A stretch of 64,000 nt of DNA from Naegleria gruberi (Eukaryota). Positions 6,019 to 51,300 of the stretch are shown here, piece by piece. A program made the position numbers and the translations under genes. The first letter of the stretch is position 1; each line of letters begins with the position of its first letter. The notes beneath the pieces are model-generated. The model saw only the letters and a list, made by a program, of their open reading frames with translations. It searched no databases and was not told the DNA's origin. Location of the stretch: the NCBI GenBank assembly GCA_000004985.1, contig GG738927.1; one strand, written 5' to 3'.

Positions 6019-7497
6019 ATGCAAACAAGGGTCGTACTGTCGGACTTTCAAACTCTTGATGATTCATCACTGTTTCAATTATTTGAAAAGATGAAACATA
6101 AACTTTCAACAGCTAGAAAATCAAAAAGAAAATTCTTGGAAAATCGAATGAATATTGCTTTCGGATACATTCCCATAGAATTTTACAAAGATAGGGAATA
6201 CGTTTTGGCATCCATCAAGAAGAATGGCTCTCATTGTCTCTATGATATTCATCCAGAAGCCTTCTCCGATCGTGAAATTCTATTCGAAATGTTAAAATCC
6301 CTTAAAAATGATAATTTTGCATCTGTTCCAATTGACAATGAAATATTGAAACCATTTGCTAATGATCGTGAAATTGTCAAATTATTAATTCACCTAGATT
6401 CTTCTTTCTTTGACAATCAAAAATTCAAATTCGATAGAGAAATGGCTCTATTGGCATGCATTTCATGTTCAGATAACTGTTTCGGGATTAGTACGGAGTT
6501 TATGGAGGATGAGGAGTTTGTTTTGAGTGCTATTGAGGAGAATTATTCAGTATTCAATACAACAAGTGATAAATTGAAAAATGATAAAGCATTTATTAGA
6601 AAGGCATTGAAGAGAAATGGAAAGGTAATTTACGAGTTGAGTGATGAGCTGATGGGTGATGAGGAGCTCATTAAGATTGCTATTGAACAAAACCCAATGG
6701 TATTCGAAGCGATATATGAAAATGAGAGTATTAATTGTGGAGCAGATGTTATCAAGATGGCTGTCGAGAAGAATGGACAGTTATTGCAATTTGTGACGGA
6801 AGATTTGGAGAATTTTGATAGAATTGCAGTGAAACAGAATCCATTGGCATTGGATTATGCAAGTGATCAATTGAAAAATGATAGAGATAGTGTTCTGGAA
6901 GCTGTCAAAAAGGATGGATCTTGTTTTGTTTATGCATCTGAAGAATTGAGAAGTAATTCTTCATTCGTGCAAGAGGTAATTGATAATTGTGCAATTCCAA
7001 AGGAAAGCAATGAAATGCATCACGTTCTACTCCTCATTTTGAAAGAAAAAGGATATTGCCCTACCTCTGTCTATGAAGCATTGAGAAATATTGATAAGGA
7101 ACTTGCTTTGAGAATAGTTAGCATTCATGGAGAGATGATTTGTATAATGGTCGATTGGCAGAATGATAGGGATGTGTTACTGACAGCATTTGAAACATGC
7201 ACTTCATCTACAGGAAGAAAACGTATCTGCTCAAATATTTATATTACTGATAAGGAGTTAATTTATGAGATTTTTGTAAAATATTCCACTGATATTATAG
7301 GTCAAATTTATGAATTGGATGTTGAATTGTTGAGAAGATTGCTTCAAATTGATGGTTCTGCATTTCGTTTAATGGATGGAAAGTTTAAGGATGAACCTAT
7401 ACTGATTGAAGAAGCTTGGAAACAAAGTGGATATGTTGATGGGCCATCTGATGAATTATATACGAAACGTATGGAATATGCCTATCCAGAATTGTAA
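6019..7497 (+). CDS. DUF4116-repeat protein, 492 aa.
   Basis: Roughly 30-aa repeat units recur with the pattern D.E.VL.A......AL.YAS..L..D..F (for example REYVLASIKKNGSHCLYDIHPEAFSDREILFEM and RDSVLEAVKKDGSCFVYASEELRSNSSFVQEV). This matches the DUF4116 repeat family. Confidence 0.55.
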   Translation: MQTRVVLSDFQTLDDSSLFQLFEKMKHKLSTARKSKRKFLENRMNIAFGYIPIEFYKDREYVLASIKKNGSHCLYDIHPEAFSDREILFEMLKSLKNDNFASVPIDNEILKPFANDREIVKLLIHLDSSFFDNQKFKFDREMALLACISCSDNCFGISTEFMEDEEFVLSAIEENYSVFNTTSDKLKNDKAFIRKALKRNGKVIYELSDELMGDEELIKIAIEQNPMVFEAIYENESINCGADVIKMAVEKNGQLLQFVTEDLENFDRIAVKQNPLALDYASDQLKNDRDSVLEAVKKDGSCFVYASEELRSNSSFVQEVIDNCAIPKESNEMHHVLLLILKEKGYCPTSVYEALRNIDKELALRIVSIHGEMICIMVDWQNDRDVLLTAFETCTSSTGRKRICSNIYITDKELIYEIFVKYSTDIIGQIYELDVELLRRLLQIDGSAFRLMDGKFKDEPILIEEAWKQSGYVDGPSDELYTKRMEYAYPEL

Positions 7498-8825: not shown

Positions 8826-11764
8826 CTACTGGATACTACAACTCTTGTGTGACTTCTTCCCTGGCTTACTTGGCGATTTTCTACTGAGCAGTTGCTTAAT
8901 GTGAGGAATAGAGTCCCATTCATTCAATTTTCCTTCATACATTTTAGAAAGTGGTTTCAAATTCATTTCTGCAAACTGAGTGAGTAAATTGAATATTTCA
9001 TGAACTGGTGGTATCATTTCTGGTTCGTAGATTGGAGAGGAGGAAGGTATTCTTTGTTGTTGGAAAAGAGTTTCGTCACCAAACATTAACATCCACTTGC
9101 AAATATCTAAAAAGTTTTCAACAGAGAGTAAGGTGGCGAGCTTTCTGATTAGATATATTTGAATAACACTGTCCATTTGGAATAAACTGGCATGATAAAT
9201 CATTCCAATTAGAATGGTTATTTCACTATTCAAAAGGACGAAAGAATCATCCACCGAGTCTTGTTGTTTGGATATTCCATAGCATGCGTGCATGAGATGG
9301 AGTAGTGCCTTTTCCTTAATCTTGGCCTCTGATGCTTCGATTGCATTTCTAGAATCGAGGTCAAAATCATATAAATCCAAGCAATTATCATCTTTGGAGA
9401 ATTGGAACTGTTCATCAAATATCTTTTCAAAAAGAGGGCTATAAGATGAGAGGATTGTCTTGTGCAAGTACAATACGTGCTTCTTTTCTGAATCGATAAT
9501 TACCTTGACATCTGAAGTAGCTTGATCGTTGAACATGTTGTGGAAAATATGTCTATGGTTCGATTGTTCATGAATTGGATGATTAATGTAGTGAGCGAAG
9601 GGTTTTTTCAAGCGAACTACACGAGAGACCTTTTCCAATGGTGTATCTTGAATATTTGCATTGAAATCTTGGAAATTATCCAAGAGCATTCTTATCTCAT
9701 CGGCTACTTGATCTGTAAGTTCCACATTACCATCTATTTCTTCAACCAAATAGTACATTACAAATCTTCTAAAATTCTCTATAATTAAATCAGTTTCGAT
9801 ATGATTCATGACATAGAGAGCATGAACCTTCTCGATAGGGGTCATGCTTACTAAGTGGTCCACTATCTTCTCCTTCTTGTGCACAAAATGACCTTGAACA
9901 CAATCCACTAAATATTGAGCAAAATTTAGTGCGATAGTAGTCATGGAATTGAGATACTCTTCATTAATCACCACATTCTCATAAAATTTTGGTGTTACCT
10001 TTCTCAATAGTGGACCATATCCATAAATCTTGTCATGGATTCTATCTCTATTGTAATGTCTAATAGGGAAGTGAAGTATTGGCAGAGAATCAATTATGGC
10101 CTTTCTGTGTGCAAAGTAAAAATGTGATGAGAATGCAGATGTCTCAACTCTGTTGATGGTATCAGTGTTAATTGAGGAAACCTTCCTGAAAACAGATGAA
10201 TATTGTGTTATATCCCCTGTACCAAGTCTATTTAACTTGTGAAGAGCAGCTCTATTTAAAAACTTACCTTCCATCAGTATTAATACCACAACTGTAAGCA
10301 TTCTGATCAGTTAGGAAAACAGACAACGAAGCTCCACATGAAACATGTTTTGGAATGAGATTAGTTTTCAGCATTGCAAATTGTGGCTTTTTCACTCTAT
10401 CTGAAAGACCCAACTCACCATTGATATTTCCACCACTGCAAATCATGTATCCACCAGTATTAGTAATAGCCATCGAATGAACAAATCCACATGAAATTTT
10501 TGTAATCTTAAATCCTGGTCTTACCATGTTAATTTTGACAAACTTTTTTACACTCTTCACATTACCCAGTCCAATTTGTCCCGATTCATTAGATCCAGAT
10601 ACGTAAATCTGACCATCCTGACTCAGTAGAACTGAATGGTCCTTACCAAAACTAATATCTTGAGCCAAAAACCCAGCTTGAACCAATGTGAAATAGGCAA
10701 CGTTGGGCTTGGATGACTTTCTACCAATGCCCAACTCTCCACAATTATTCTTTCCAGCAACATATAGAGCTCCATTATTTGTAATGAATGCAGAATGATG
10801 CTCTCCACAACATAGTCTCTTGATGGGTATATTCAACTCGTACGATTCAATAATTTCTTCCTTTCCATCTTCTAATGAGTGTTCCACGACATTATCTTCA
10901 TTACTGCTTCCACTCCCACTGGATGAACATTCTTCCTCTTCATTGTTTGAGGTATTTACAGTATATTTTGGTATATTTACTTTTTCGAAATCCTCCCGTT
11001 TCACTAAATCTCCCTAAAATGATGAGTCAATAAATCAATTTCACTAACTTACCAATCCAAGTTGACCATTGGTATTTAAACCTAAATTTAATCAATTAAT
11101 ATAACAAGTCCAATTGGATGTTTCCAATAATAATTATCAGTTTCCATATTTAGATATTTTATGACTTACCACTGCTGTACAACTCTCCTTCATTCGTTAA
11201 CAACATCAAATGAAACCATCCACTCGATATTGCCTTCACCTTCTTATCAAAATGTAATTTATGCATTTGTGACAATCCAGATTGATTTGTTTTCATTGCT
11301 CCCTTGAACGAATTATATCCACTCACATAAACTTCTCCAAATTCTGTTAATATTGCCAAATGATATGCACCTGCTTCCACTTGTTTAATCATAATCGGAG
11401 CAAAAGAAGGATTTTCAATTGTATGATGAGATGAATTCTTGCTAATTGGTGTTACAGTTGGAACTGGCTTTTCCGAATAATCATCCAATTGACCCAATAT
11501 TCCATACTTGTTTTTGCCACAAGAATAGATAAGATTGAGAGGTGCATTAGGAGAGGCAATATGTAATAGAGGAAGTGAAACACTATTTCTATTATTGTTT
11601 GATGATGATTTTGAAGTATTCGGAGAAGAATTATTATTCAATGTTTCCTCTTCATCATGTTGATGATTAGCAAGCGACGATGATGCTGATGAAGAAGGAC
11701 TCTCAGGTGAAGTTGCCTCCACCATTGAATCATCTTCCGTAGTTGAAAGTCTACTCTCTTCCAT
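8826..11764 (-). CDS. RCC1-repeat + BTB domain protein (RCBTB-like). Structure is join(8826..10227,10268..11013,11053..11081,11170..11764), including a 29-nt micro-exon.
   Basis: RCC1 blade motifs occur repeatedly (YSCGKNKYGILGQ, LYVAGKNNCGELGIG, IYVSGSNESGQIGLG, CSGGNINGELGLS). GTAAGT donors and AG acceptors restore the frame at each junction. The micro-exon encodes (G)LNTNGQLGL, itself an RCC1 motif. The C-terminal exon contains a BTB/POZ domain (VKVIIDSEKKHVLYLHKTILSSYSPLFEKIF...). Confidence 0.7.
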
Positions 11765-13801: not shown

Positions 13802-14207
13802 TCTAGAGGATTAAATTATTACAATAATTTTATTATAAGAATATGATATTGAGAAATCTATTCATCTTGGTCTTCCTCCAAATCCTCAATATCTTCAAAA
13901 TCCGCTTCTTCAACATCCTCACTAATATGCCATTCTTCATTCTCATCTTTAATAATGGATAATATTTGAAAAAGAGGATTCTGCAATATATAAATGGTTT
14001 GATTGTATGGACGTTTCCTTTCACTTTGGATTTACCAACCGGATATGTTTGTAATCTGTGTAAATTCTCATAAATGACACCATGTACAAATTCCGTAACG
14101 AGCAAAAGACTCGAATTTCTTATTGGAGGTTTGGACTAGACGTTCCTTAATTTCTTTCTGGAAATAATTCCAATCTGAAACATAGTACATTCCTCTTGAT
14201 ACCAAAA

Positions 14208-15490
14208 TTAGGATACAATGTTCAAATCAGTCAAATTTCCTTCTGTCAAATATTGTAGTAATCTTACTCTCATTTCTCTTTCTGTTTTCTTCACTATCCT
14301 CCCAAGTAAGAGAGAGGGCGAAATGAATGGTATTCGTACTGGAGAATTCTCTTCCTCCTCATCAAACACTCTCCCCAGTACACATTTCACTTCTTCCAAT
14401 TCTGTTGTGTTGATAATATGATGAATGAATCTTTGGATAATCAAAATCCAAATAATATGAAACGATTGAATTGACAGAATTTCTGATATGTGAATCAGAA
14501 ATAACTTCAAATTCAGGTCTCATTTTGAAATGAATTTCCCAAATTGACTGTAACTCCTTTCTGTAATTTCTTAATTAGAATATCTGGTTTGGTGAAGAGT
14601 ACTATTTTTCTTGTGTCCATTAATTCTGGAATACTGTTCATAAATTTAAACATCCTTTTGGTATCTTGAATTCTCAAAGTTTGCGAATCATCTTCAGCTA
14701 GATATTGATCTATCTCTGAAAGTGAGATCACCAAAAAGATTGTTTCTGGCATGGAAGCCAAAGACTGCATCCATGTTCTTCTTTCAGTTCTAGCCCCTCC
14801 CACATCCCTGAAATAGCCATACCTGAATTCAAATTGTTTGCTTGAATTTGTACATTCATAACACCACGTCAAAGGAAGAAAGCTTTCGTTTGGATTTTCA
14901 ATATTTTCCAAGAATTCTGGTAAATTTTCCAGCATTTGAAGGTTCAGTCTTGAATGTAAATTGATGCTATTTTTGTGTTCATTGCAATATTGTGAAATAT
15001 TTAAACTTATTTCATTCCATCTAATTTCGTATAATTCTCGCATATTTGGAATTTTCCAAACATGGATTAATAATTCACAAAAATCAAAATTAGAAACTTG
15101 TGGAAAGGAATCGAATAAATCCCAATCTTTTATCCTGATAATTTCCTCAATTTTATCCAAAGTCGATTCAAATCTCTCTAAAATCAACCCTTTCATTTGC
15201 TTTCTTTCACTTTCTTCCAAAATACTCCACAATTTTCCCATCATTGAACAACAAGCATACTGCAAATCATGCTCAAACTCTATTTTACTCGAATAAAACC
15301 ATTCCTTCCTCAAAATATGTTTTGCCAAATAATACAATGTTGATTTTCCACTATTGGCTGTTCCAAAAAGTGAGCAGCCCTCACCTATTTTTCTCCTAAT
15401 GGGTTGTTGTTGATTGGTTGCATCCGAAGGCAGTTGTTGCTGCTGATGATGATGATTATTTGGTATCGGATGTGATTGTTGTGCTCCCAT
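14208..15490 (-). CDS. Divergent heterotrimeric G-protein alpha-subunit-like protein. It starts at MGAQQS (ATG 15490). The 3' portion lies in a different frame below 14513.
   Basis: Motifs present are an N-terminal MG (myristoylation-type start), a P-loop FGTANSGKST, the DVGGAR(T)ERRTW switch II (the canonical form is DVGGQRSERKKW), and LFTKPDIL in place of NKKD. The downstream frame 14208..14510 encodes a G-alpha C-terminal-like segment (SEILSIQSF...FIHHIINTTEL, resembling AAYIQCQF...IYTHFTCATDT). Confidence 0.6.
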
Positions 15491-23718: not shown

Positions 23719-25202
23719 TTAATCATCAGAATCATCAGAATCATTAGAATCAGCAGAATCAGCAGAATCCTCTGAATCCTCAGAATCCTCATAGGACTCT
23801 TCCTCTTCTCTCTTGAATTTTGGAGCAAGAGTTCTCAAAAACTTATCCTTCAAAGCTGCAGGCGTTCTACATGTGTGAAAGGTTGTAGAATAAACTTTCA
23901 ATATCTTAGTCCAATTATCACTGAATCGTCTGTATCCTTCCTCTAACTTGTCCATCTCTTGTTCAGACCAAAATCTTGAGCTAGACTTTTTGGTAGGGGA
24001 AGACAATATTGACCTAGCTGCAGAGTCAGAGAGAACAGTACTATTCCTACTTTTTCTTCGACTAGATTTTCTCTTTTCTGTCTTTTCTAACTTGACAAAT
24101 AACGAGCCTCCTTCCTCTTCCTCCTCTCTTCTTCACTTGTTTCTACACATGTTGTAATACCATTTACTCTATCAGTAATGAAATTTGTATACTTATTTTC
24201 TGTATAATATTCTGAAGTTTTTCTATATTTGTTCAGTCCTTGCAAAGTGCAATCAGGTTCAAATTCTTGCTTCATTTTAGCATTATCATCACTTAGTCCA
24301 GTAGAAATTCTTTGTTTGTCCTTGTTTGGAGTTAAATCAAAGAGTTTTGTTTGCCTTAATCGTTTTTTACCGTTCTTTGATTGAGTTGATGAGGTAGTGC
24401 TTTGGGTGTCCTCTTGATTGTGAATAGATTGTAGAATGGAATCACTATGTGAAATGAAACTCTCTTGATGATTTTCGAGTGGATGAATCTCTGAAGGCAG
24501 TTGTGATGGAGAGGAGGCACCTGCTCCCAATTCTGGTAAATCAGTATCTATTTTATGTTGTACACCATTAACTTCTTCATGCTTGGAATTATTTACGAGA
24601 TTTAGTAATTTATCAGGAATGCAGAATATCAATTTTTCCACATTAATCAACAAGCCAGATAAAGCATCCTTCCTTTCATTTGGTTCTGCTTTGTTAATTT
24701 TCCTCTTCCATGATGCAAGTTTCTTCTCAAACCTCTCCTTTCCGAAACTTGATAATTGGGCTACTGATTTAAATCCTTCTTCCGAAAGTCCAGAAATTAT
24801 TTCCTGTAATTTAGTTATTAAAGCATTCACTTGATCGATGAAAGATGTACTCATCACAGAGTCTTTTAATTGTGATAGGTTTGTAAAAATCTCCTGAATC
24901 TTTACTATTACATCATCACGATTATATTGGTCACCAATGGCTTGCACAAATTTTGCAATCAAATCGCCATGTTCTCGAAAATTATTATACAAATAACTCA
25001 GGACGATTGTATTTGCTTCCGATCGTATTTGTGGCAAGACTTCATCATCGGTAATCATTTCATCAGTTATGTTTGATTGTTCCATTTTTTTTGTCTTGGT
25101 TTGCTGCTTCGAGAGAATTACCAGGTTGGATGCTGGCTTTGCATCGTTTTCTGTCGAATAGGTCTTGTGCCAATTTACGTGAGAGAGTTGATATTTCTTC
25201 AT
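23719..25202 (-). CDS. TRF/Tbf1-like telomeric-type Myb (SANT-like) DNA-binding protein. It is probably two exons (24087..25085 and 23719..24006) with an acidic SD-rich tail.
   Basis: The C-terminal exon contains a single TRF-type Myb domain (RFWSEQEMDKLEEGYRRFSDNWTKILKVYSTTFHTCRTPAALKDKFLRTL), showing the W..E....L..G.......W..I.........RT...LKDK.R pattern. The upstream part is helical and could be a TRFH-like dimerisation region. The first ATG in frame is at 25085. Confidence 0.5.
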
Positions 25203-28200
25203 TCTCGTGTCTAATGTATTTCAAAAGAAGACCACTATTCTCTTCAGATTCGGTTGCCAGGGTTGCGAATGAATCAGCCAATACAATCAAACAACTCATA
25301 ATGAGTGGAGCACCATCACTGGTAAAGACTTTAAGACAACTGATTACGAGTGGATAAAATTCTGAAGCCAGTGTTTTGGAAACGATCATAATCTTACCAA
25401 TTGCAGCTACAGCATGACTTTTCAATGATTTTGGTGCCTTTCTTGATTGCATACAGTTCCTTAGTAGATTGACATATCTAGAAAGAAATCCCTTGGTTAA
25501 GCTTTCAGTAACAGCCCTTTCTAAAACAAGTCCTTTGGCTTGTTCTCTTTGATTTTCCTTCATGCAGTTTTCCTCCTCACCTTCAAAATCATCCTCCTCT
25601 GATATCAGCTTGTCACTATTCTCGTTGAATTTCCTAGTAGCAATAGACCTAATTTCCAAACTATCCCTATAACAAATCTCTCCAACTAAATCAAAGAATG
25701 CACTCATCTTTTCGAGATCAGTTTCTTGTTTTTCAGTAAAATCCTTCCAAACTGAGCTCTCCACTTTTCCAATTCCATAGTAGGCCAATCTTCTATTACT
25801 CTCTGTAGAGTATACCAAGGAAAGGGTCTCACGACCAAATTCTAGTAGTAGGAACGCAATGTTTTCTTCCAAAAAGTTGTCCACAGACTTTTTGAAGGGT
25901 TGATTATTGCTTATTCTATATACCTCCTCTATAATTCTTATTTTCAATGAGATTAGCTTTCGATTACCTTCAATGTTGGAAATCAAATCTTTAAGGTTTT
26001 GAAGAATGTTTTCAAAAGGAATGAATACCAAAAAACTAGAGTCTAACTTGAGCAACAACAACATGGTGAATATTGCTGTTGTTAAATCTAGCTTCTCCCT
26101 ACAATACTCAACCAGAGATCTCAAACTCAAGTTAGGGAAGTAAGTCTTGATTCCACTGAATAAAATCAGCCATGGATCGATTAATTCAGTATTTCTTTTA
26201 CAGGTTACATTGATGAAAAAGCACTATAACTTACGTGATTGATTGCAACAATAAACCGAACTTGAACTTGGATTGAGGATCTACAAAATAGGAAACAAAC
26301 AGATTGCATATTCTCTGCTTAACAGATGAGTGTGTATCCTTTCCAATACAGGATACAAGTTCTGACCAGTCAATCTTCAAACCTTGAATGGTCAGTTTGT
26401 CAAACAAGTTGAACACTGATAGTATGGATTCTTTGCAAAATAGAGGGCCTTCAAGTGATAAAGCTCTCAAAGTGTTGAGCAATTTGGGAATGAATTTGTA
26501 GTAGACTTTTTCGAGAAATTCTACGTGCATTCTCTTACAAGAAATGTCATCATCCAAGTCATTTGATTCATGTTGGAACAGAATACACTCACTTTTTGTG
26601 GATGAAAATCTCACTTTAACATGCGAACTTTGTTGTAATCTTCTACTAAGGCTTTCGAATGTTTCATCAATGAATGGTACCATATTCTTTGGTTGTTGTT
26701 CCAAAAATAACATGGTGTTATCATATAAGGATTGACCTAATTTCTCAATCACATTATTCTTGTATAATTGATATAAATCCAACAATTCGACGCTTTTTTC
26801 AAAGTTGTCTCTACACAATAATAAATCAAAAGCTCTGGTGTAGGGATTTCTTTGTATTAGACCAAATGAAGCATTAATACTCTGTACTCTTGTTGTCTTT
26901 GACTTGTCAGAGATGTGGTCAAGGCAATTATTCTAATTACCTTAATAATCATATTTGAAATGTAACTTACCAAGAATTTGTTAAACTCAACAGCATAATT
27001 ATTCCAATCAACCTGACCCGAAATATCTGCAATTTTCTGGAATGCTCTTGTTCTAACAAAGGCGTCCTTATCGTTTGTTCTTTGAAGTACAATATTCAAG
27101 AAATCCTTATTGAGTATGTTTGCCTCTATCAAGTTGGAAATTACTTCCAAAAAGTATTTTCTAATTGAACCATTTGAGGAATTGGAAATGAAATCCAGAT
27201 CAGAAATGTACATTACGAATACTTTTGGAATTTTCTTTGAAAGGATTGACAACAGCTCTACAGCCTTTGATACATCTTTGCTCTTCTTATTGGTCAACTC
27301 TACCATATTCTGTACAAGTTGAATGAAATAATCCAAAAAGACGAAGGAGAATTCTTCGTTATGATTATGTATATCAACAAGTATTGAGCACATATTTTGT
27401 GGCTCAATTATTCCTTCTATGCACAACTTGGAAATAAATGCGCAAAATCTCAGGTGATATTTTCTTAAATCCTCTTCATCATTGATAATCTTGAACGGTA
27501 ATAGAAGCAACACTTGGAACGCACTCCACAAGCTTGTACTAGACTTTTTTCCTCCATTTGAAAATGCCAATAGGAGCTTTGGTAGGGAATAGTGCACCAA
27601 TTCAATCAAGATTTCCATTCTCATTTGCTTTCTTTTTGCATTCTCATAAAGAAGTGAAGTATAAGAATCAATAGAACCGAGTATCTTTTCCAAGCTACCT
27701 CCCTTCAATTTTCTGTTTTGTGACAGCTTGAAGAGTGAAGCAACTAGAATTAAGAAATGTCTATTGAATATTCTCATCAATAAAGCTCCATCAGGGTTAC
27801 GTGATGATGCCTCACCCTCATTCAATGAAATAGCCTCACTAATTGAATGACATCCATATTCTACAACCCTCACTATTTGACATAAAGTGTCACTACTCAA
27901 TGAATCAAAGGCTAAAACAATACTGTTGAAAATTCTACTATCCAACATCGGGAAAGCTATCATTAAAATTACATGATCACAATACATGAATAATTATTCG
28001 AAACATACCATCAACAATACTATGAAATTGATTTTTAATTTTCATCGGAAAATCATTCAAAAGACTTAACAAGCCTTCACTTGAAATTGGATTCTCTACA
28101 ATCAAACTATCCACAGACTTGAATAAGGATGAATAATCACCCACTCTTTCATTTTCACTCTCCTTGAACAATCCTTTTGAATTCGAAACAAGGCTTTCAA

Positions 28201-34960: not shown

Positions 34961-37900
34961 TTATTTCTTCTTCTTGGTAGAGTAACTTGTTTCTTTTGGT
35001 GTTGGTAGCTTTTTCTTTGGTTTCTCTTCCTCAGATTCCGAACTTTCTATCTTCTTTTTAGTTTCATATTTCATATCATCATCGGATTCTTCAGAGTCAT
35101 ACTTCTTTGCTTTCTTTGAAACAGGTGATTTGAGTGGTTTCTCTATCTTCTTTGGTGATGGACACCCATCAGAAGAGTCGTCATCTGAACTTTCTTTCTT
35201 CTTTTCACTCTTTTTAGTTTTCCATGTTTCTGTTTCTTCCTCTTCGTCATCCAATACTTCATGAATGTTTGTGAGCTCGTCTTTGGATCTCTTGACATAA
35301 ATGTGAGATTCACGAGTTCTCAATACTAATTTTCTAGACCGATACCAAGATTTGTTCATTTTTGATTCTAAGCTCATTGTTTGAAAGTTAATTGTGTTGC
35401 CATTAGAGAGTTCGTATAGAGAATTTGTAGCCTTTTTTGAGCTTGACTTTTGAGCTTTGAATAACCTGTATGCTTGTTCCACTAGTTTTGCTTCTTCTTC
35501 ACCAAGTACATTTCTACCAGAGCCTATCCCAAGTATCCATTGATACTTGGTAAACTTTTTCTTTCCTACTGACTTGTTCTCTATTTTTTCATCAACATAG
35601 GCATCTCTAAAAAAGTTTCTATTATGTGGATGGAATGAGCCAACAACATATTGACGGGTTGGCTCATATGTTATAAATTCCAAATGTGGAGGGAGGTCAC
35701 TCTTTGGTTCCTTTGGTTGAATAATTCCATTAATATCGTTAAGTGAATACTCAAAGAATAGTTTCATCTTTTTCTCCTCAACTACGTATGTTGTTCTTGC
35801 CTTAATGTGATTAAAAAGCTGACTAGCAGATATAAATTCAGAATTCCAACTGTACCTAGGAAGACGAATTTGTGTATAGTCATGATATTTTGACTTGGAA
35901 ACCGTCTTTTCGGCAGATTCAACATCATTTCCTGCTCCAATTGATTTCAGTCCTCCTCTAAAATTGGCATGCTTATAGGCATGTCTGATGAGGAGAATTT
36001 TGGCAAGACCTGTGACATTATGAAGTTTGGCTCTTGGTTGAGGCTGTCTAAAGTATCTTCTATTATGTTTGTAGAAATGATCCCCTATCAAAATATCATT
36101 TTGAACTCTTTTTTCTTCATAGCCAGCTACTCCAACTCTAAAGCCACGGAGAGCATACTTGGTTAACCTTAATTCGTCTTATGAAATTATTAGAATTTAA
36201 TTTTAAAGTACTCACAAGTTGTAGATTGTCTATCAACGTCTACAATATTGCATCTTGTCTTTATGGCTTGAATGGCTCTTGGTAATGCGTAAACTTGAGA
36301 GCCATCAAAACCAACACAACAACAATTCACATCGAATCCAATTAAGACTTCAGCCTTTTGTTGACCAAGAGATTTGTAAATTTTAAAAATTACGTAAACT
36401 TACTGGAGATTTGTAAATTCTCAAAATTACTTGCACTGTCCTTACTGAGCTGATAAACTTGAATGTAATAGCATTTTCAGTTCTGATCAACAAAATATCA
36501 TCATAATTTGTGCCTTCTTCGGTGGACTTTGGAGAGGAGTATTTTTTGGATTTTTTAGTGAGCTTGTTGAACTTGTTGCTATCATTTGCATTTTCTGGTT
36601 TTGCAAAATGTGGAATGTTTTTGATATTCTTTTTGAATAATTCAAAAAGGTAAAAAATCTTCTTTTCGGCTTCCTTTTCATCCAAACCATAAATGAATAA
36701 ATCTATATCACTGTTTTTCCAATAGGATTTTCTAAAATAGTTGAAAAGTTCTTCATCCAAATCATCTTGTTCGTATTTTTTGAATGAGCTTGCTTTTTTG
36801 GCTCGAACAGGTTTATCGTCCTCAGAACTTGTTGCTGAAAAATATCCATCTGCAACAGACCCATTATCATTATCAGAATTAGAACCATCATCCTCATCCC
36901 AGAGCACTTTTTTCTTTGCTTGTTGCATTACTCCACCTTGGAAAGGATCAACCTTTTGAAATCTACTGTAACGGTTTTCTTGTAGCAAGTCTTTTCTATC
37001 CAATTTAGCTTTGAGCATGCATGCCAAAATTCCACCACCTAATTTTTAAATATTATTGAAAATTGAATAATTAAAAATATTAAAGAAAGACATACCTGCT
37101 GCGAATACATTACTCCAATCCATATCTTTAAATAGACCACAAGTTAGAGCGTTAAATTGAGTGAAGAATTCTTCTCTATCAGAAACAATTTCTGGGATTG
37201 GTGGCAATTTGAGTCTTGAATATTCATTGATAAGTTCAGAACATTCAACAGGGTTTTCAAAATCAAAAAGCAAAGGTAGGGTACTTGGAGGATCGCATGG
37301 TTTGAGTAATTCTCTGGTAGAATGTTCATTACCAAAAACACTAACCAAATGAATGTAAGGATCTGAAAGAATCTGATTTTCTCTATCTGAAACATATAAA
37401 TTTCTCAAAAAGTCTTCCTCTTTTTTGATTTTTAAATTATTAGATCCAATATCTTCGATTGGATAACGAAGAGGATCTAAAAAGTCTAAAAGTCCTTGGA
37501 GTTTGAATTCTTTGGCCTCTTTGTAAACCAGTTTTCTCTGAGACATTTCTCTTGGGACTGAAGTGAAGGTTGCACTCTCCAAATATTCGTACAATACAGA
37601 AAAGACTTCACTATCTCTGTCAAGGAATATTTCACGGTTGGTACTTGCTTGAATCAATTGAGGGAAAATACTTTCTGGATGGACAAGTAACTTTTCAATA
37701 CCAATGCAAAATTTCACACCTCTTACATTGAAAACAATTGGTTCCTTTTTCAAAAAGGCCTCTCTTTTTCTGAGTTCTTCTCTTTCCTGTTCAAGATCAA
37801 CCTCAGCCTTTTTCAAAAAGTCTTCCATGACAGTCTTTTCCTTGAGTGTAAGCTTTGAAAACATATCCAACCATTTTTCATCACTTTCGTTTTGATTAGA

Positions 37901-38720
37901 ATGGAGAGTGTTATGTTGAGAAACTCTGTATTCTTTGATTTCAGGTGTATCTTCCTTTTCTTCCATTCTTTGGTGTCTTTGATTGGAATTGTGTTGCTTG
38001 ATCAATTCGGCAACTCTTGCACTTAATTTACTTGTACCAAAGTAATCAGATTCTATCAGCAAAGCTTTTAACTTTTCAATGGTATCTTCAGTTATATTTT
38101 CCCACAAACCTACATATGTGGTGGATCCTGTGTGAATTAAATAAATGTCACTCGTCATCACAACTAAACATTCTTAACCTACCAGTTCTAATATGCTCCA
38201 AAATGATTGGAAAATAATCTGGATTACTCTCACTCAACAAGATACAGCCATTCTCATCACGATCAACCTTAAAATCAGAATTCAACATGGTCTTGATCAT
38301 ATTCTCTCTTCTATTAATGGTAGAAAGTGAGGTAACAAACATTTTCCCTCCGACCATCAATTTGACAATATTTTCACCTGATTGCAAGATTTCCTTCACC
38401 TTTTCACTATTCAGATGATCATCTTGTTGGTCATCCATCTTGTTGCCATTAAACTTTTCTAGAACTTCGATTTCCTTCATCTTTTGTTGATTTCTTCTCC
38501 TTTCTTCATCGATTTTGTGGAGAGCATCAATTCGGACTGTTTCTAATTCTTCTCTCTCTTTGATGTATTGTGGATCATCTTTTGAAGAGGAAAATGATGA
38601 TGGTTTTGGTGCATAGGATGAAGATGACGAAGAGCTTGGTTCTTCTGCTTTGCGTTTCTTCTGATGTTCGAAGGCGGAGGATGAGCTTACTTTCCTTGCC
38701 GTTTGTTTGGTTCGGGCCAT
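34961..38720 (-). CDS. Large multi-domain protein: a histone H3 N-terminal tail mimic (MARTKQTARK), two KCTD/T1-type BTB domains, an unassigned D-x-D-containing central domain, and a K/E/S-rich tail. Approximate structure is join(34961..36167,36212..36354,36404..37038,37096..~38130,~38148..38720).
   Basis: ATG at 38720 with an A-rich leader. The first 10 residues are identical to histone H3. BTB/T1 signatures include VKLMVGGKMFVTSLSTI...DRDENGCILLSESNPDYFPIILEHIRTGRLRM and IVFNVRGVKFCIGIEKLL...REIFLDRDSEVFSVLYEYLESATF. Three downstream introns (GTATGT, GTAAGT and GTACTT donors) restore the frame exactly into the 36383..37027 ORF, a 139/143-nt exon, and the 34961..36091 ORF. The BTB1/BTB2 junction near 38130-38168 is unresolved. 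Confidence 0.55.
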
Positions 38721-44321: not shown

Positions 44322-46676
44322 ATGAAAACAAGACAAATAACGCCGAGCCCTCTAACGATTTCATCATCTTCAAATCGTCCCGAAAAACATTCGAATAATA
44401 ACATTAAAACTTGCTGCTTTGGAAGAAACTTTAGTTTACGAGTGAAAACTACTTTCGTATTAATTATAATGTTTCTCGGATTGATGGCACTTTGTCTGGG
44501 GATTTTACTAGCTGCCTTTTTCGTGGTTTTTCAAAATGTGGAATATCAACAAGCTAAAGAAGCAAGTAAACGAGTTTCTCGAGCATTATTGGACGATTTG
44601 AATTATTTACAGTCAAAAGTATTCGAATTTGGAGCATTTGATGATACAGTTTCCGTCTATGAAAATCTCACTCAGGAAAATATTGGAAATTACACTGAAA
44701 TGTATTGGCACTGTGTTTATTTAAATAGTGTGAATGTGAATATGGCTTTTCTTTATTCGAAAGATGGAACTTTAATTACAAAAGTTCATTGCTTTAAGGG
44801 GCAAATGATAGAACAAGTTCCTGATGAGTTTTCAAGTTTGGAAAAGAATTCGTATGGAAATTTCTTTTTACAAGATATTGAAAATGTTTGGAGTAGGAAA
44901 TCTGGAATTTTAATTCCAAAAAAGACAATTTTTGAGATGGCAACTTCTGATGAATCGAGGAATTTCCTTTCGAGTTATGAATCGAATGTGACGAATATTG
45001 TGTTGGTAGCTGCAATGCCAGTGCAGAGTACAAATTATGATTATTCGAGAGGTTTAGTCTTGTTTGCCAAGTATCAATTGGATGAACATGCTTTGGATAT
45101 GGCTGAAAGAACTCAACTTTGCATGACCATGATGAATTTGAAAAACGAAACTGACCTCTATTCATTCAAGGAATCGATTGGATCGTTGGATACGAATGCA
45201 TTTTCGAGTGGAACTGATTGGAAAGTAACAAATATTACAACCTCATCCTATTTAACTGATTGGATTGATAACGAATCGTCGTTGGTTCAGTTTTTGGACT
45301 CGAGTGAAGAAAATTCAGTGAAATTGAATAATCGTCAATGTTGGAAAGATAATATGAATGATGAAAGTTCTGTTTCCTTCAATGCTGGATCTCCTACCGA
45401 TAGAATGGCTTCCTATCAAGCATTCTACACACTAGATGGAGAAAAGTCACTCATTATTCGATCCGATATTCCAAGAAAGACATTTCAAATAGGAATGGCA
45501 TCATTTCTAGTTGTTTGGTCAGTCATGACTTTTATGATTGTTGTCATGTCAATTGCCATTGTCTGTTTTGTGGAAATGATAGTTCTGAGAAGAGTCATCT
45601 CACTATCAAGTACTGTACAACGTGTGCACGACACTGTTAATTATGCAATTAGAGCTCCAAAACTAGGAAATGATGAACTAGGTCAATTATCCAAAGATCT
45701 TAACACCATGCTCGGAGAGATTGAACATGTGCAAAATCAACTCGAAAAGGACAATACAGTGATGCAGGATTTATTGGAGAAGACTGCTCTCGAAGAGGCC
45801 AAGAGTAGATGCGTCATGAATAGTATTGACGATTTCATTGTAACTGTTGACTGCTCAAATGGCATGCTTCTCAATATCAACCTCTCATTTGAGAGTAGAA
45901 TCTTGAGAAAACAGAGAGCTTCCGTAAATTTTGAAGCACTCCCCTTCAATCAAGCTGTCTTTGCCTATTTTAAGGAAATTCCATCATTGGAATTGCTTTT
46001 ACAAAAATTGGAAAATCTTGCCACGACTGGATCACATTGGGAAACTACCATTCTATCAGGATTTGGATTGAATATTCCAGTACATGTCACTGCTAAAAGA
46101 ATTAAGGTAATTATGGGTAAATTCACACGAGTGGATGCATACATGATTGTTGCCAGAAATTTGAGCGATCAAAACGAAATGAAACAAACCATCAAGAACA
46201 AACAAGATAAACTCGATGAAATGAAACAACATTCTGACTTTGACAGATACATGACAGATCCAATACTAAGACAACAATTTAAGGAATTTTGCACTAAGGA
46301 ACGAGCTGAGGAAAATGTCATCTTTTTGGAACAAGTAATGGAATATAAGAAATTATCAAGAACTCACGAAAGAGCCAAGAAACAAAAGGAAATTATTGAA
46401 ATGTTTCTTTCTGAAAATTCAGCAACACCAATCAATATTTCAAAACAAGTTTTTACAACAGAAGTGAAGAAAATTTTGGAAGGTTTTGGCCAATTACAAC
46501 TTTTTGATAATTTAGAAACAATTATTAAGAGTATGCTCATTTTGGATAAGTTTAAGAGATTTATTTCACAATTTGAAACAAGTCAAATGACGACCATTGA
46601 TACGGACAACATGTCTAGCTCAGGATCAATCGCATCAGATGCCAGTTATCAACACACTTTTACATCAACTGATTAA
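44322..46676 (+). CDS. Receptor-like membrane protein: TM, a ~340-aa extracellular sensor region, TM, HAMP, a PAS-like domain and an RGS domain.
   Basis: The HAMP sequence immediately follows TM2 (VLRRVISLSSTVQRVHDTVNYAIRAPKLGNDELGQLSKDLNTMLGEIE). The RGS-domain signature is ILRQQFKEFCTKERAEENVIFLEQVMEYKKL...IIEMFLSENSATPINIS....KKILE. Confidence 0.65.
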   Translation: MKTRQITPSPLTISSSSNRPEKHSNNNIKTCCFGRNFSLRVKTTFVLIIMFLGLMALCLGILLAAFFVVFQNVEYQQAKEASKRVSRALLDDLNYLQSKVFEFGAFDDTVSVYENLTQENIGNYTEMYWHCVYLNSVNVNMAFLYSKDGTLITKVHCFKGQMIEQVPDEFSSLEKNSYGNFFLQDIENVWSRKSGILIPKKTIFEMATSDESRNFLSSYESNVTNIVLVAAMPVQSTNYDYSRGLVLFAKYQLDEHALDMAERTQLCMTMMNLKNETDLYSFKESIGSLDTNAFSSGTDWKVTNITTSSYLTDWIDNESSLVQFLDSSEENSVKLNNRQCWKDNMNDESSVSFNAGSPTDRMASYQAFYTLDGEKSLIIRSDIPRKTFQIGMASFLVVWSVMTFMIVVMSIAIVCFVEMIVLRRVISLSSTVQRVHDTVNYAIRAPKLGNDELGQLSKDLNTMLGEIEHVQNQLEKDNTVMQDLLEKTALEEAKSRCVMNSIDDFIVTVDCSNGMLLNINLSFESRILRKQRASVNFEALPFNQAVFAYFKEIPSLELLLQKLENLATTGSHWETTILSGFGLNIPVHVTAKRIKVIMGKFTRVDAYMIVARNLSDQNEMKQTIKNKQDKLDEMKQHSDFDRYMTDPILRQQFKEFCTKERAEENVIFLEQVMEYKKLSRTHERAKKQKEIIEMFLSENSATPINISKQVFTTEVKKILEGFGQLQLFDNLETIIKSMLILDKFKRFISQFETSQMTTIDTDNMSSSGSIASDASYQHTFTSTD

Positions 46677-48399: not shown

Positions 48400-51300
48400 A
48401 TGTATTCAAACAACAACAAGTGTCATTGTGGTTTAATTGCCAAGCAAGGAACGACCTCGAAGGGAGAAAATCAGGGTAGAAAGTACACCTCCTGTTCTAA
48501 AAGTATGACTGATAAGAGTCGATGCAAATTCTTCAAGTGGTTAGATTCATCAGAACAAACAGCAACAACCAACATATCATCTTCTTCATCATCCTTCAAA
48601 AGCAATAGCAAATTACAGCACAGTGAGCAGGCTTTTGATGATACTTTGAACAAGACGATACAATTGATGAATAGAGTGCTTCCTTCTTCCTTGTTATCAT
48701 CAACAAGTGGTTCTTCTTCTTCATCATCAAATAACAAGTCTCCTTCCAACAACACTAATAGCCAGTGCTCATCTCTCACACTCTCACAATTGTGCTCCAG
48801 TATGGAAGACTTGAATATTGACAAAGATCTTTCAAAGCCTTCTTCTTCTCAAGCTATTGATAGAGACTTCATATTGAATGATAGTCTTTTTCCTTCTTCT
48901 TCTTCAGAAGCAAGCAAGAATAGTCTTCCTCTGATTGGAAACAATCAGCATAAAGGAGGAACATCATCTTCATCGTTACCAAATTCTCTCCTTGAAGAAT
49001 GTATGCAAAAGGAATTAAATAGCAAACAATTGGAGGCTGTCTGTGCTAGCGAACATGATTGTGTATGTGTTTATAGTGGACCGGGATCTGGTAAGACAAA
49101 GGTAAGTTGTTGTTATTATTGGATGGTAGAGGGAATTAATAATTAATTATTTGATGAATATTCATCTTGTGATGATGTGATGAATTTTTTTTTAATTTTT
49201 ATTTAATTTTTTTAAAAAATTCATAACGGTCATGGATCCAAATTTTAGACCATCACCAACAGGATTGCCTACTTGTGTATTGTTAAAGGAATTGAACCAA
49301 GGAATGTATTTGCCATGACTTTTACTAACAAGGCTGCTCAGGAGATGAAAACAAGACTTGTTCACCTTGTGAAATTGTACGATTTTCAAAAGAGAATTAA
49401 TGCAAAGGATTTCAGTCATATTGGAACGTTTCATGCAGTTTGTGCTAATATTTTGAGAAATGAGATGCATCATTTGACTCGTATTGTTGGATTGGATCAG
49501 AAATTTATGATATTTGATTCGGAAGAGCAGCTGTCATAATTAGGAGCTTGTACAAGTCATCAACTAATCATTCCATTAGAAGNNNNNNNNNNNNNNNNNN
49601 NNNNNNNNNNNNNNNNNNNNNNNNNNNNNNNNCTTTTAAAAAATTCGTAACGGTCATTGTAAACTTTGGGTGGATCCAAATTTTAGACCATCACCTACAG
49701 GATTGCCTACTTGTGTATTGTTAAAGGAATTGAACCAAGGAATGTATTTGCCATGACTTTTACTAACAAGGCTGCTCAGGAGATGAAAACAAGACTTGTT
49801 CACCTTGTGAAATTGTACGATTTTCAAATTAATGCAAAGGATTTCAAGACTTGTTCACCTTGTGAAATTGTACGATTTTCAAATTAATGCAAAGGATTTC
49901 AGTCATATTGGAACGTTTCATGCAGTTTGTGCTAATATTTTGAGAAATGAGATGCATCATTTGACTCGTCTTGTTGGATTGGATCAGAAATTTATGATAT
50001 TTGATTCGGAAGAGCAGCTGTCAATAATTAGGAGCTTGTACAAGTCATCAACTAATCATTTCATTAGAAGTTTACTTCCATTGAGTTTGTCTTTGGAGGA
50101 TATGGAGAAGAAACTCTCTCCAACTCTAGTTTTACAAACGATATCACGATGTAAGAATCAACAGGTTTCAGCTGATGAATATTCGAAAGCATTCCATCAA
50201 GAAATTGAGGAAACGGTCATTGCTGAACTATTTGTAGAATATCAACAGTATTTATCGAAACACAATGGGGTGGATTTTGATGATTTATTGCTTCATGTTG
50301 TGTACTTGTTTGAAAAATTCCCTCTAGTGAGAGAAAAGTATGCCAATCAATGTGAAGTATTATTGGTCGATGAATTTCAAGATATCAACAAGTTACAATA
50401 CAAGATTGCCATGCATTTGAACTCAAAGAGGAAGAACATCTTCTTGGTTGGTGATTCCGATCAAAACATTTACACTTTCAGATTCAGTGATAGCTCAATA
50501 ATGCGGGAAGTTATCAAAAAGTATGAGAAGGAGGGAAAGAGCATGAAAGTCATCATGATGAATGAAAACTATCGATCCACAAGAAGTATTGTCCAATTTT
50601 CAGACAAAATAATAGCTAGCAATTCTAACAGATTAAGAACTATCAGCTCTACCACTTCAAACACCACGGGTTTACCAGTTTCGATAGTCAGTTGCTCTGA
50701 TGAAGCCGAGTTCATTACAAATGAAATTGTAAAACTCACAAACATGAATAACAACATTCAATATTGCGACTTTGCAATCCTTATCAGAGTCAACTCTGCT
50801 TCTCGAGTATTCGAAGACATTTTTGATAGGAAAAAGTTGCCTTACAGAATTTTGAATTCCACAAGATTTTACGACTCTATGGAAGTGAAAGATATTCTTT
50901 CCTATGCAAAAGCTATTGCAAATCCAGATAATGATCACTTCCTGTTGAGCTGTGTGAATGTTCCAAGAAGATGCATCACTGAGGAGACAAAGTCCAAGTT
51001 GATAAAGCTTGCAGCTCAGAATAAGATGTCTCTGAGGTCAATTATCAAGAATCATAACAAGGAAATTGCTGGACATCTAGGAGCCAATGAGTTACAAACA
51101 CTCATTTCCACAATAGATTTTATCGAAAAGTCTCAAATTAATCTTCATTCTCCTTCAACTATTATGCAAGATATTATTCGGGTGATTGATTATGAATCCT
51201 ACTTGAAATTCACACAGAAGAATATGTTCGAAACAAGATGGGAGAATTTGAAAGAGTTAATTAACATGTGTCAAGAATTTGAGTCCAAATCAACCATTCC

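What the first reader, a model, noticed from the sequence alone, without database searches (positions are those of the whole stretch)
14208..15490. G-alpha-like protein with the catalytic Gln replaced by Ala, a non-canonical NKxD motif, and a frame discontinuity near 14510
Switch II reads DVGGAR instead of DVGGQR, which removes the glutamine required for GTP hydrolysis. The NKxD guanine-specificity motif is TKPD, and the switch I Arg/Thr region is not recognisable. Such a protein would be GTPase-deficient (constitutively GTP-bound) or a pseudo-G-alpha. It sits in the same window as a receptor-like RGS protein. The C-terminal G-alpha-like segment (IQSF...FIHHIINTTEL) lies in a different frame from the main ORF. 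No canonical intron explains the shift; the two candidates are 23 nt and 72 nt with poor sites. The alternatives are a 1-bp indel (sequencing error or pseudogene) or a very unusual splice.
Basis: partly seen in the sequence, partly recalled or inferred. Interest (0 to 1): 0.6.

Follow-up and report, generated by a model that had tools for sequence, protein, structure and literature searches.

The report
Frame-broken divergent Naegleria G-alpha gene
This is one of the many divergent G-protein alpha-subunit genes of the amoeba Naegleria gruberi; its odd catalytic motifs are normal for its gene family, and its reading frame is broken twice near the 3' end, so it is most likely a young pseudogene or an assembly error and not a new kind of G protein.

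Summary
The window is Naegleria gruberi nuclear DNA. The minus-strand ORF 15490-14516 is 100% identical to RefSeq XP_002669428.1 (NAEGRDRAFT_75669). It scores above the Pfam G-alpha threshold. The motif observations are correct: DVGGAR replaces DVGGQR, TKPD replaces NKxD, and the switch I arginine is Tyr. The Mg-binding Thr and the P-loop GKS are kept.

These features are not private lesions. They mark a clade whose named members are all heteroloboseans (N. gruberi, Willaertia magna). The clade has [TSV]K[PVA]D, HIVNT instead of TCAT, no N-terminal helix and a C-terminal "FISPCL...LTDI" extension. Only 1 of 15 members keeps the Gln.

The frame discontinuity is real but was mislocated. Intact paralogs (407 and 406 aa) align in three frames, with breaks at 14533 (one extra base) and 14421 (two bases missing). 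The stretch between the breaks is homologous coding sequence, so no intron explains them.

Both downstream segments are still open. The gene has evolved no faster than its intact paralogs. The breaks are therefore recent or artefactual. The annotated 325-aa product would lack alpha4, beta6 and alpha5.

A review already reports catalytic-motif deviation in Naegleria G-alphas. Interest is low.

The parts
14534..15490 (-). Segment A (frame -1), 319 codons: MGAQQS start (myristoylation-type MGxxxS) through ...KKLQKGVTVNLGN. Holds the Ras-like G1-G4 motifs and the helical domain.
   Evidence: 100% identical to XP_002669428.1. Pfam G-alpha 96.6 bits. tblastn with P0002/P0003 gives 41% identity over 279-319 aa.
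15338..15364 (-). P-loop / G1 motif GTANSGKST. The GxxxxGK[ST] pattern is intact.
   Evidence: Aligned with GAGESGKST of GNAI1.
14843..14860 (-). Switch I equivalent YECTNS. The arginine finger (R178 of G-alpha-i1) is Tyr, the Mg-binding Thr (T181) is kept, and G183 is Ser.
   Evidence: MAFFT alignment with GNAI1 and 24 relatives. Coordinates.
14789..14806 (-). Switch II / G3 motif DVGGAR. The catalytic Gln (Q204 of G-alpha-i1) is Ala.
   Evidence: HMMER alignment to G-alpha-q chains, dvggarterrtw vs DVGGQRSERRKW. MAFFT.
14582..14593 (-). G4 motif TKPD in place of NKxD. Lys and the guanine-specifying Asp are kept.
   Evidence: The same motif occurs in 15 clade representatives.
14533..14533 (-). 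Frame break 1: one surplus base (T) between ...LGN (frame -1) and HFKMRPEF (frame -2). Net +1; equivalently a 4-nt TCAT insertion relative to LGNFKMRPEF of P0003.
   Evidence: tblastn HSP boundaries 14534 / 14532. Direct reading.
14513..14515 (-). Premature TGA that ends the annotated 325-aa product (...SFQNET*). It is reached only because of frame break 1.
14422..14532 (-). Segment B (frame -2), 37 codons: HFKMRPEFEVISDSHIRNSVNSIVSYYLDFDYPKIHS. This is the loop and alpha4 region, homologous to the paralogs.
   Evidence: tblastn gives 23/42 identical to P0003 at 42.7 bits and 26/54 to P0002. Adding segments B and C raises the Pfam score to 109.7 bits with profile coverage 8-331/333.
14421..14421 (-). 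Frame break 2: a lone T where the paralogs have a Phe codon (KIHS-F-HIVNTT). This amounts to a 2-nt loss (net +1 shift).
   Evidence: tblastn HSP boundaries 14422 / 14420. Direct reading.
14211..14420 (-). Segment C (frame -3), 70 codons: HIINTTELEEVKCVLGRVF... Contains beta6, the G5 equivalent INTT in place of TCAT, a short alpha5, and the clade-specific C-terminal extension FISPSL...LTDLNIVS.
   Evidence: tblastn gives 32/71 identical to P0002 at 56.6 bits. It ends level with the paralogs' stop. P(open by chance over 70 codons) is about 0.005.
14208..14210 (-). Ancestral stop codon TAA.
   Evidence: The C-terminus aligns with the ends of P0002, P0004 and P0014. Loci L001 and L002 show that no further exons follow this kind of gene.

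Best explanation
The locus is NAEGRDRAFT_75669 of Naegleria gruberi. It is a single-exon member of a lineage-specific clade of divergent G-alpha-like proteins.

The intact ancestor was a protein of about 427 aa. It had an N-terminal MGxxxS lipidation motif, an intact P-loop, the Mg-binding Thr and the guanine-specifying Asp. It lacked both catalytic residues: the Arg finger is Tyr and the Gln is Ala. If it bound GTP, it would have hydrolysed it very slowly or not at all. It would have acted as a nucleotide-locked or nucleotide-independent membrane-tethered signalling subunit, comparable to plant XLG proteins. This functional reading is inferred, not shown.

In the sequence as assembled, two small indels break the frame in the 3' third: +1 at 14533 and -2 at 14421. 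Translation stops at 14513-14515. The resulting 325-aa product lacks alpha4, beta6, the G5 motif, alpha5 and the C-terminal extension, so it cannot form a complete guanine-nucleotide pocket.

The most likely status is a recently inactivated pseudogene or a null allele. The breaks are shown. That they are real mutations and not assembly errors is inferred.
For: - Identity: 100% match to XP_002669428.1 / D2W2Q1.
- Family: Pfam G-alpha scores 96.6 bits for the truncated product and 109.7 bits, nearly full-length, after joining the three frames.
- Three-frame homology to the intact paralogs P0002 and P0003.
- No single GT/GC-AG intron restores the homologous protein. Of 8 mechanical joins, each either deletes conserved sequence including the TKPD region or retains wrong-frame residues.
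- Related genes in L001 and L002 are uninterrupted single ORFs.
- The motif states are clade-wide: 15 representatives have [TSV]K[PVA]D and only 1 keeps Gln.
- The AF2 model of paralog P0002 (pLDDT 83.5, pTM 0.83) matches solved G-alpha structures over both domains.
- Frame-breaking indels are rare elsewhere in the window. 74% of it lies in ORFs of at least 150 aa, some up to 1001 aa, and the only gap is 35 kb away. Two independent sequencing errors within 112 nt are therefore a priori unlikely.
- Another N. gruberi clade member, NAEGRDRAFT_66226 (263 aa), is also incomplete. This fits birth-and-death turnover in a family reported to have about 44 members (PMC8584482).
Against: - There is no sign of decay beyond the two indels. 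Segments B and C are stop-free, although about 18 random substitutions (about 5.7% divergence) would be expected to create a stop.
- Tajima relative-rate tests show no acceleration against the intact paralogs (all chi2 <= 2.0).
- Conservation after the breaks (46-55% identity) is as good as before them (41%).
- All of this is equally what an intact gene with two local assembly errors would show.
- No independent reads, transcripts or second assembly could be obtained.
Confidence: 0.55

Rival explanations
1. The gene is intact and functional in the organism. The two indels are local errors of the draft assembly, for example a low-quality or low-coverage stretch, or a consensus made from two haplotypes. 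The true product is a full-length divergent G-alpha-like protein of about 427 aa.
For: - Both downstream segments are open and end exactly at the paralogs' stop.
- There is no rate acceleration.
- The repaired protein matches Pfam G-alpha from end to end.
- The two lesions lie only 112 nt apart, as expected for a locally poor read region.
- Site 2 can be read as a T-run contraction, TCATTTCAT -> TCATCAT.
Against: - The rest of the 64-kb window shows long uninterrupted ORFs, so the assembly's indel error rate is low.
- No gap or N run lies near the locus.
- Site 1 is not a simple homopolymer error.
- The public gene model accepts the premature stop.
Confidence: 0.3
2. The indels are real, but the truncated 325-aa protein is the functional product. 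It would be a lipid-anchored G-alpha fragment (P-loop, helical domain, switches, beta5-alphaG) acting as a decoy or scaffold.
For: - The 975-nt ORF with an MGxxxS start is intact and is annotated as a protein.
- Nucleotide-independent roles are documented for atypical G-alphas such as the plant XLGs (PMC8584482).
Against: - Removing beta6 and alpha5 takes a core strand and helix out of the Ras-like fold, along with the G5 guanine contact. Stable folding is doubtful (secondary-structure map of the paralog model).
- The out-of-frame remainder is still perfectly preserved, which argues that the truncation is too young to have been selected.
- No other clade representative ends at this point.
Confidence: 0.08
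3. A full-length protein is made from the broken gene by recoding: two programmed +1 ribosomal frameshifts, transcript editing, or a very unusual splice.
For: Only the fact that all three segments remain open and homologous.
Against: - The breaks are not at recognisable slippery or stop-adjacent shift sites.
- Shifting at the frame-A or frame-B stop codons would replace homologous residues, including HIINTTELEEV, with wrong-frame ones (reading).
- No canonical intron works.
- The intact clade genes in L001 and L002 need no recoding.
Confidence: 0.02

Closest known systems
N. gruberi paralogs NAEGRDRAFT_70767 (XP_002674060.1, 407 aa) and NAEGRDRAFT_73162 (XP_002671918.1, 406 aa)
   Same: - 41-45% identity along the whole length.
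- MGxxxS start, TKPDILIKKLQKG, KMRPEF, NSIVS.YL, KIHS.HI(I/V)NTTE.EEV, and the FISP.LL ... L(T/S)D tail.
- No catalytic Gln (Ser in the paralogs) and Tyr at the Arg-finger position.
   Different: - The paralogs are uninterrupted ORFs.
- They have lost more of the nucleotide site than this gene: the P-loop Lys is Thr (GTADSGTST) and DxxG is NxGG. This gene keeps GKS and DVGG.
Canonical heterotrimeric G-alpha subunits (Pfam PF00503; e.g. human G-alpha-i1 and G-alpha-q, N. fowleri G-alpha-7 PDB 6NE6)
   Same: - Ras-like domain plus inserted helical domain.
- P-loop, DxxG, the Lys and Asp of G4, and the switch II Trp.
- N-terminal lipidation motif.
- The paralog model superposes on G-alpha-q/olf/t structures.
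   Different: - About 19% identity.
- Arg finger and catalytic Gln absent.
- NKxD is TKPD and TCAT is INTT.
- No alphaN helix in the paralog model.
- Short alpha5 followed by an extension of about 45 aa instead of the receptor-coupling tail.
Plant extra-large G proteins (XLG1-3) and other atypical G-alphas with degenerate catalytic motifs
   Same: G-alpha fold with deviating G motifs and reduced or absent GTPase cycling. A nucleotide-independent mode of action has been proposed. The review PMC8584482 explicitly lists Naegleria among the lineages with such deviations.
   Different: Independent origin. XLGs carry a long N-terminal extension with a Cys-rich region and an NLS. This clade instead has a C-terminal extension and a short low-complexity N-terminus. 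No biochemistry exists for the Naegleria clade.
GTPase-deficient Q204L/Q227L-type mutants of canonical G-alpha
   Same: Loss of the switch II Gln that orients the attacking water.
   Different: Those are single substitutions in otherwise canonical proteins and give constitutive GTP-bound signalling. Here the Arg finger, G4 and G5 also deviate, and the gene is frame-broken.

Membership tests
Heterotrimeric G-protein alpha subunit (Pfam PF00503) | Significant match to the family profile above the curated threshold | tested here: met
   96.6 bits for the annotated ORF and 109.7 bits (profile 8-331/333) for the three-frame join, against a cut-off of 48.8.
Heterotrimeric G-protein alpha subunit (Pfam PF00503) | Ras-like domain with an all-helical domain inserted between G1 and switch I | tested here: met
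   The profile alignment spans both domains. The AF2 model of paralog P0002 shows helices 62-182 between beta1 and beta2, and Foldseek aligns about 350 columns to G-alpha chains. The model is of the paralog, not of this protein.
Heterotrimeric G-protein alpha subunit (Pfam PF00503) | G1 P-loop GxxxxGK[ST] | tested here: met
   GTANSGKST at 15338-15364.
Heterotrimeric G-protein alpha subunit (Pfam PF00503) | Switch I RxxTxGI: catalytic Arg finger and Mg-binding Thr | tested here: not met
   YECTNS: the Arg is Tyr, the Thr is kept and the Gly is Ser.
Heterotrimeric G-protein alpha subunit (Pfam PF00503) | Switch II DxxGQ with catalytic Gln | tested here: not met
   DVGGAR: Asp and Gly are kept, Gln is Ala.
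Heterotrimeric G-protein alpha subunit (Pfam PF00503) | G4 NKxD and G5 TCA(T) guanine-recognition motifs | tested here: not met
   G4 is TKPD, with Lys and Asp kept and Asn replaced by Thr. G5 is INTT and lies out of frame.
Heterotrimeric G-protein alpha subunit (Pfam PF00503) | GTP binding and hydrolysis; G-beta-gamma and receptor coupling | not testable with these tools
   These need biochemistry. Indirect evidence only: no alphaN helix and a replaced C-terminal tail in the paralog model.
Divergent [TSV]K[PVA]D G-alpha-like clade (named members from Heterolobosea only) | [TSV]K[PVA]D in G4, H(I/V)(I/V)N(T) in G5, C-terminal FISPCL...L(T/S)D(I/V) extension, variable residue at the Gln position | tested here: met
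   This gene has TKPD, HIINTT, FISPSL and LTDLNI. The profile search ranks it with P0002-P0005 well above canonical G-alphas: 536, 215 and 134 bits against at most 107 bits.
Pseudogene | Frame disruption relative to intact homologs | tested here: met
   Two frame shifts, at 14533 and 14421, with a premature TGA at 14513-14515.
Pseudogene | Relaxed constraint (accelerated evolution, accumulated stops) | tested here: not met
   Relative-rate chi2 <= 2.0 with six outgroups. There are no stops in the shifted segments. If this is a pseudogene, it is very young.
Pseudogene | Lesions confirmed in independent reads; no full-length transcript or protein | not testable with these tools
   No contig carrying this product is on record, and no metagenomic relative was found.

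The most novel reading that the evidence does not exclude
The two indels are genuine, and the amoeba still makes the full-length protein of about 427 aa from this locus by recoding: two programmed +1 frameshifts or transcript editing 112 nt apart. That would make it a regulated, conditionally expressed GTPase-dead G-alpha-like subunit.
Probability: 0.02. Interest if true: 0.7.

Novelty: already known. Interest (0 to 1): 0.15.

Why it matters
For the scan, it matters little. The gene is already in RefSeq as a G-alpha-domain 'predicted protein'. N. gruberi is reported to have about 44 G-alphas. Deviation of catalytic motifs in Naegleria G-alphas has been noted in print (PMC8584482, citing Anantharaman et al. 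2011).

Two modest points remain useful:
- The public model XP_002669428.1 is a truncated reading of a frame-broken gene. It should be flagged as a pseudogene or a low-quality model. It is not evidence for a short G-alpha.
- The clade it belongs to is a coherent, apparently uncharacterised set of probable pseudo-GTPases. Its members have TKPD, a hypervariable residue at the Gln site, sometimes no P-loop Lys, no alphaN helix and a conserved C-terminal extension. Anyone studying nucleotide-independent G-alpha signalling outside plants could test an intact member, for example NAEGRDRAFT_70767.

Tried and rejected
1. Intron explanations. Every GT/GC...AG pair between 14640 and 14380 that joins frame A to the terminal ...LTDLNIVS was enumerated. 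Eight exist (44-245 nt). All either remove conserved sequence, including the TKPD region, or leave wrong-frame residues where the paralogs have KMRPEF...KIHS.

2. A downstream BTB domain. The clade's C-terminal 'L(T/S)D(I/V)x(I/V)' tail looks like the first strand of a BTB domain, and 13830-14207 (minus strand) contains open pieces in several frames. I tested whether the gene continues into BTB exons.
- Pfam found no BTB in any frame or in a stitched version.
- A protein search with the stitched peptide found nothing.
- In L002 a convergent gene ends 143 nt after the stop, and in L001 a double stop follows.
The idea was rejected.

3. Independent sequence for the locus.
- Exact-product look-ups of the 325-aa, 334-aa and frame-C ORFs, and of paralog P0002, found nothing on record.
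- A metagenome scan with the repaired protein gave 419 pattern matches but no relative.

4. Programmed frameshifting at the frame-A and frame-B stop codons. It would skip homologous residues, so it was rejected on reading the sequence.

5. Functional linkage to the RGS gene. The gene is 29 kb away with many genes between, and an RGS cannot supply a missing Gln or Arg. This is not evidence of linkage.

6. Anantharaman et al. 2011 (PMC3396428) could not be read because it is not held. What that paper says about this clade is known only through the citing review.

Full report
**Origin and identity.** The window has about 34% G+C throughout. The minus-strand ORF 15490-14516 is 100% identical over 325 aa to 'predicted protein [Naegleria gruberi]'. 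That entry is XP_002669428.1 / EFC36684.1 / D2W2Q1, locus NAEGRDRAFT_75669, on a 174-kb scaffold. The window is therefore N. gruberi nuclear DNA, and the finding concerns an already annotated gene.

**Family.**
- The ORF matches Pfam G-alpha (PF00503) at 96.6 bits, E 2e-27, against a cut-off of 48.8.
- It matches about 230 solved G-alpha chains at E down to 3e-10.
- In the HMMER alignments, dvggarterrtw pairs with DVGGQRSERRKW of G-alpha-q, and ivlftkpdil pairs with ILFLNKKDLL.

- The P-loop is intact: GTANSGKST at 15338-15364.
- Switch I is YECTNS (14843-14860) opposite RVKTTG. The arginine finger is Tyr, the Mg-binding Thr is kept and Gly183 is Ser.
- Switch I is thus recognisable, contrary to the finding. 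The catalytic Arg is indeed missing.

**The frame problem.** The protein search returned two intact N. gruberi paralogs: P0002 (407 aa, NAEGRDRAFT_70767) and P0003 (406 aa, NAEGRDRAFT_73162). They are 41-42% identical to the query. tblastn of these against the window gives three collinear HSPs in three different frames:
- frame -1, 15490-14534, ending ...KKLQKGVTVNLGN
- frame -2, 14532-14422: HFKMRPEFEVISDSHIRNSVNSIVSYYLDFDYPKIHS, against FKMRPEFKDIINKHELKKVVNSIVSHYLDFENEMEFNKIHS of P0003
- frame -3, 14420-14211: HIINTTELEEVKCVLGRVF...LTDLNIVS, against HIVNTTELEEVNCVMERIL...LSDIRVLT of P0002, ending at the same place as the paralogs

One base (T, 14533) lies between the first two segments. One base (T, 14421) lies between the last two, where the paralogs have a Phe codon. 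There are therefore two frame breaks, a net +1 and a net -2, which do not compensate each other.

Joining the three segments gives a 427-aa protein. It matches the Pfam model almost end to end (positions 8-331 of 333) at 109.7 bits. It aligns with G-alpha-q through beta6/alpha5.

**Not an intron.**
- The 111 nt between the breaks encode homologous residues, so they cannot be intronic.
- An exhaustive scan found eight GT/GC-AG pairs that could mechanically join frame -1 to the terminal frame. Each either deletes conserved sequence, including the TKPD region, or retains wrong-frame residues.
- Two related genes recovered with flanks are uninterrupted single ORFs: L001 from a Logan assembly and L002 from an ENA metagenome.

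**The motif deviations are family traits.** A profile of the three N. gruberi proteins was searched against 1.84 billion cluster representatives.
- It returned a small high-scoring group (P0003, P0001, P0004, P0005 at 823-134 bits). Ordinary G-alphas followed, from 107 bits downward.
- Among the 151 proteins held (150 hits listed plus P0002), 15 have [TSV]K[PVA]D instead of NKxD.
- These share H(I/V)VNT in place of TCAT and a C-terminal extension 'FISPCL...L(T/S)D(I/V)x(I/V)'.
- The members that carry a source name are all from Heterolobosea: five from N. gruberi and one from Willaertia magna. The rest are unnamed environmental or Logan contigs.
- Only one of the 15 (P0004) keeps the switch II Gln. 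The others have S, A, R, K, M, Y, D, V or T.
- The Arg-finger position is similarly variable.
- The two closest paralogs have even lost the P-loop Lys (GTADSGTST) and the Asp of DxxG. This gene is thus, if anything, the more canonical of the three.
- A review states that N. gruberi has about 44 G-alphas and that deviation of catalytic motifs occurs in Naegleria G-alphas (PMC8584482, citing Anantharaman et al. 2011, which I could not read).
- de Mendoza et al. note a lineage-specific G-alpha diversification in N. gruberi (PMC3971589).

**Structure.** An AlphaFold2 model of the intact paralog P0002, built with a 41-sequence alignment, has mean pLDDT 83.5 and pTM 0.83.
- It shows beta1, the P-loop, a helical domain (residues 62-182), beta2/beta3, the switches, beta4, beta5, alphaG (282-290), alpha4 (312-327), beta6 (340-344), a short alpha5 (349-360) and a lower-confidence helical extension (371-397).
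- There is no N-terminal alphaN helix. Residues 1-24 have pLDDT below 50.
- Foldseek's best PDB matches are G-alpha-q, G-alpha-olf, transducin and G-alpha-s, over about 350 columns.
- Mapped onto this model, the annotated 325-aa product of the present locus ends just after alphaG. It lacks alpha4, beta6, G5, alpha5 and the extension.

**How old are the breaks?**
- Segments B and C contain no stop. The two off-frames of segment A have a stop every 12-15 codons.
- A 70-codon open stretch has P of about 0.005 at this base composition.
- About 5.5% of single substitutions in B+C would create a stop. Roughly 18 substitutions (about 5.7% divergence) would therefore be expected to close them.
- Tajima relative-rate tests of the repaired protein against P0002/P0003 with six outgroups show no acceleration (chi2 0-2.0).
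- Identity to the paralogs is as high after the breaks as before them.
- The gene was under the same constraint as its intact relatives until very recently, or it still is and the indels are assembly artefacts.

**Real or artefact?**
- Against artefact: 74% of the window lies in ORFs of at least 150 aa, several of 740-1001 aa. The only N run is at 49583-49632. Frame-breaking errors are therefore rare in this assembly, and two within 112 nt would need a locally bad region.
- For artefact: the complete absence of other decay.
- I could not obtain independent reads. Exact-product look-ups and a metagenome scan found nothing.
- My estimates are: real mutations giving a non-functional young pseudogene or null allele 0.55, assembly error 0.30, functional truncated product 0.08, recoding 0.02.

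**Mechanism (inferred).** The intact protein type has a lipidation motif, a P-loop (in this member), the Mg-binding Thr and the guanine-specifying Asp. It lacks both residues that stabilise the hydrolytic transition state. It also lacks the alphaN helix that binds G-beta-gamma and the canonical receptor-coupling C-terminus.

The most economical reading is a membrane-tethered G-alpha-like subunit that binds nucleotide without cycling, or does not depend on nucleotide at all. This is analogous to plant XLGs (PMC8584482). An RGS protein cannot rescue hydrolysis without the Gln and Arg. The receptor-like RGS gene in the window lies 29 kb away at 44322-46676; it has two TM segments, a CHASE4-like domain, HAMP and RGS. 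It says nothing about this gene. None of this biochemistry has been tested for the clade. The experimental N. fowleri study covers canonical members (PMC9283941).

**Verdict.** The single-shift description is wrong in detail. The biological reading ('GTPase-deficient or pseudo-G-alpha; indel or pseudogene') is broadly right but unremarkable. The locus is an annotated member of a known lineage-specific expansion of divergent G-alphas, with two small frame-breaking indels. Interest is low.

Noticed in passing
window 44322-46676 (+): A 784-aa ORF with a bacterial-sensor-like layout fused to a eukaryotic RGS domain. From N to C: TM (~43-70), a ~320-aa CHASE4-like extracellular domain (weak, E 4e-4), TM (~392-420), HAMP (E 1e-4), and a C-terminal RGS domain (57 bits). 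It is a two-TM protein, not a 7TM-RGS.
   Followed up: partly
window 49832-52570 (+), with a 50-N gap at 49583-49632: A 912-aa ORF that combines a UvrD/REP superfamily-1 helicase (N and C domains) with a C-terminal PARP catalytic domain (89.6 bits). The helicase match starts at profile position 77 and the scaffold gap lies just upstream, so the N-terminus may be missing.
   Followed up: no
window 13830-14207 (-): The ~400 nt between the G-alpha stop and the convergent gene ending at 13801 contain open stretches in several frames. One ends in an acidic tail (...NPLFQILSIIKDENEEWHISEDVEEADFEDIEDLEEDQDE*). No Pfam match and no homolog in the 5.8-billion-protein search. It could be a UTR, a small unannotated gene or another decayed fragment.
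   Followed up: yes
proteins P0002/P0003 (NAEGRDRAFT_70767, _73162), not in the window: The closest intact paralogs have lost the P-loop lysine (GTADSGTST) and the Asp of DxxG (NAGGSR / NVGGSR). They are more likely true pseudo-GTPases than the gene in the window.
   Followed up: partly
protein P0005 (NAEGRDRAFT_66226, 263 aa), not in the window: Another N. gruberi member of the TKPD clade is annotated without the N-terminal P-loop and most of the helical domain. It may be a second truncated model or a decayed copy in this family.
   Followed up: no
window 24087-26130 (-), 8826-11004 (-), 37046-38720 (-): Pairs of long same-strand ORFs overlap in different frames: 24087-25202 with 25063-26130, 8826-10301 with 10264-11004, and 37046-38161 with 38148-38720. 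They probably mark introns, but could be further frame shifts. Not examined.
   Followed up: no
window 6019-7497 (+) and 59904-61139 (+): A DUF4116-repeat protein (164.6 bits) and a full-length DUF4419 protein (373.7 bits). Both domains have no known function.
   Followed up: no
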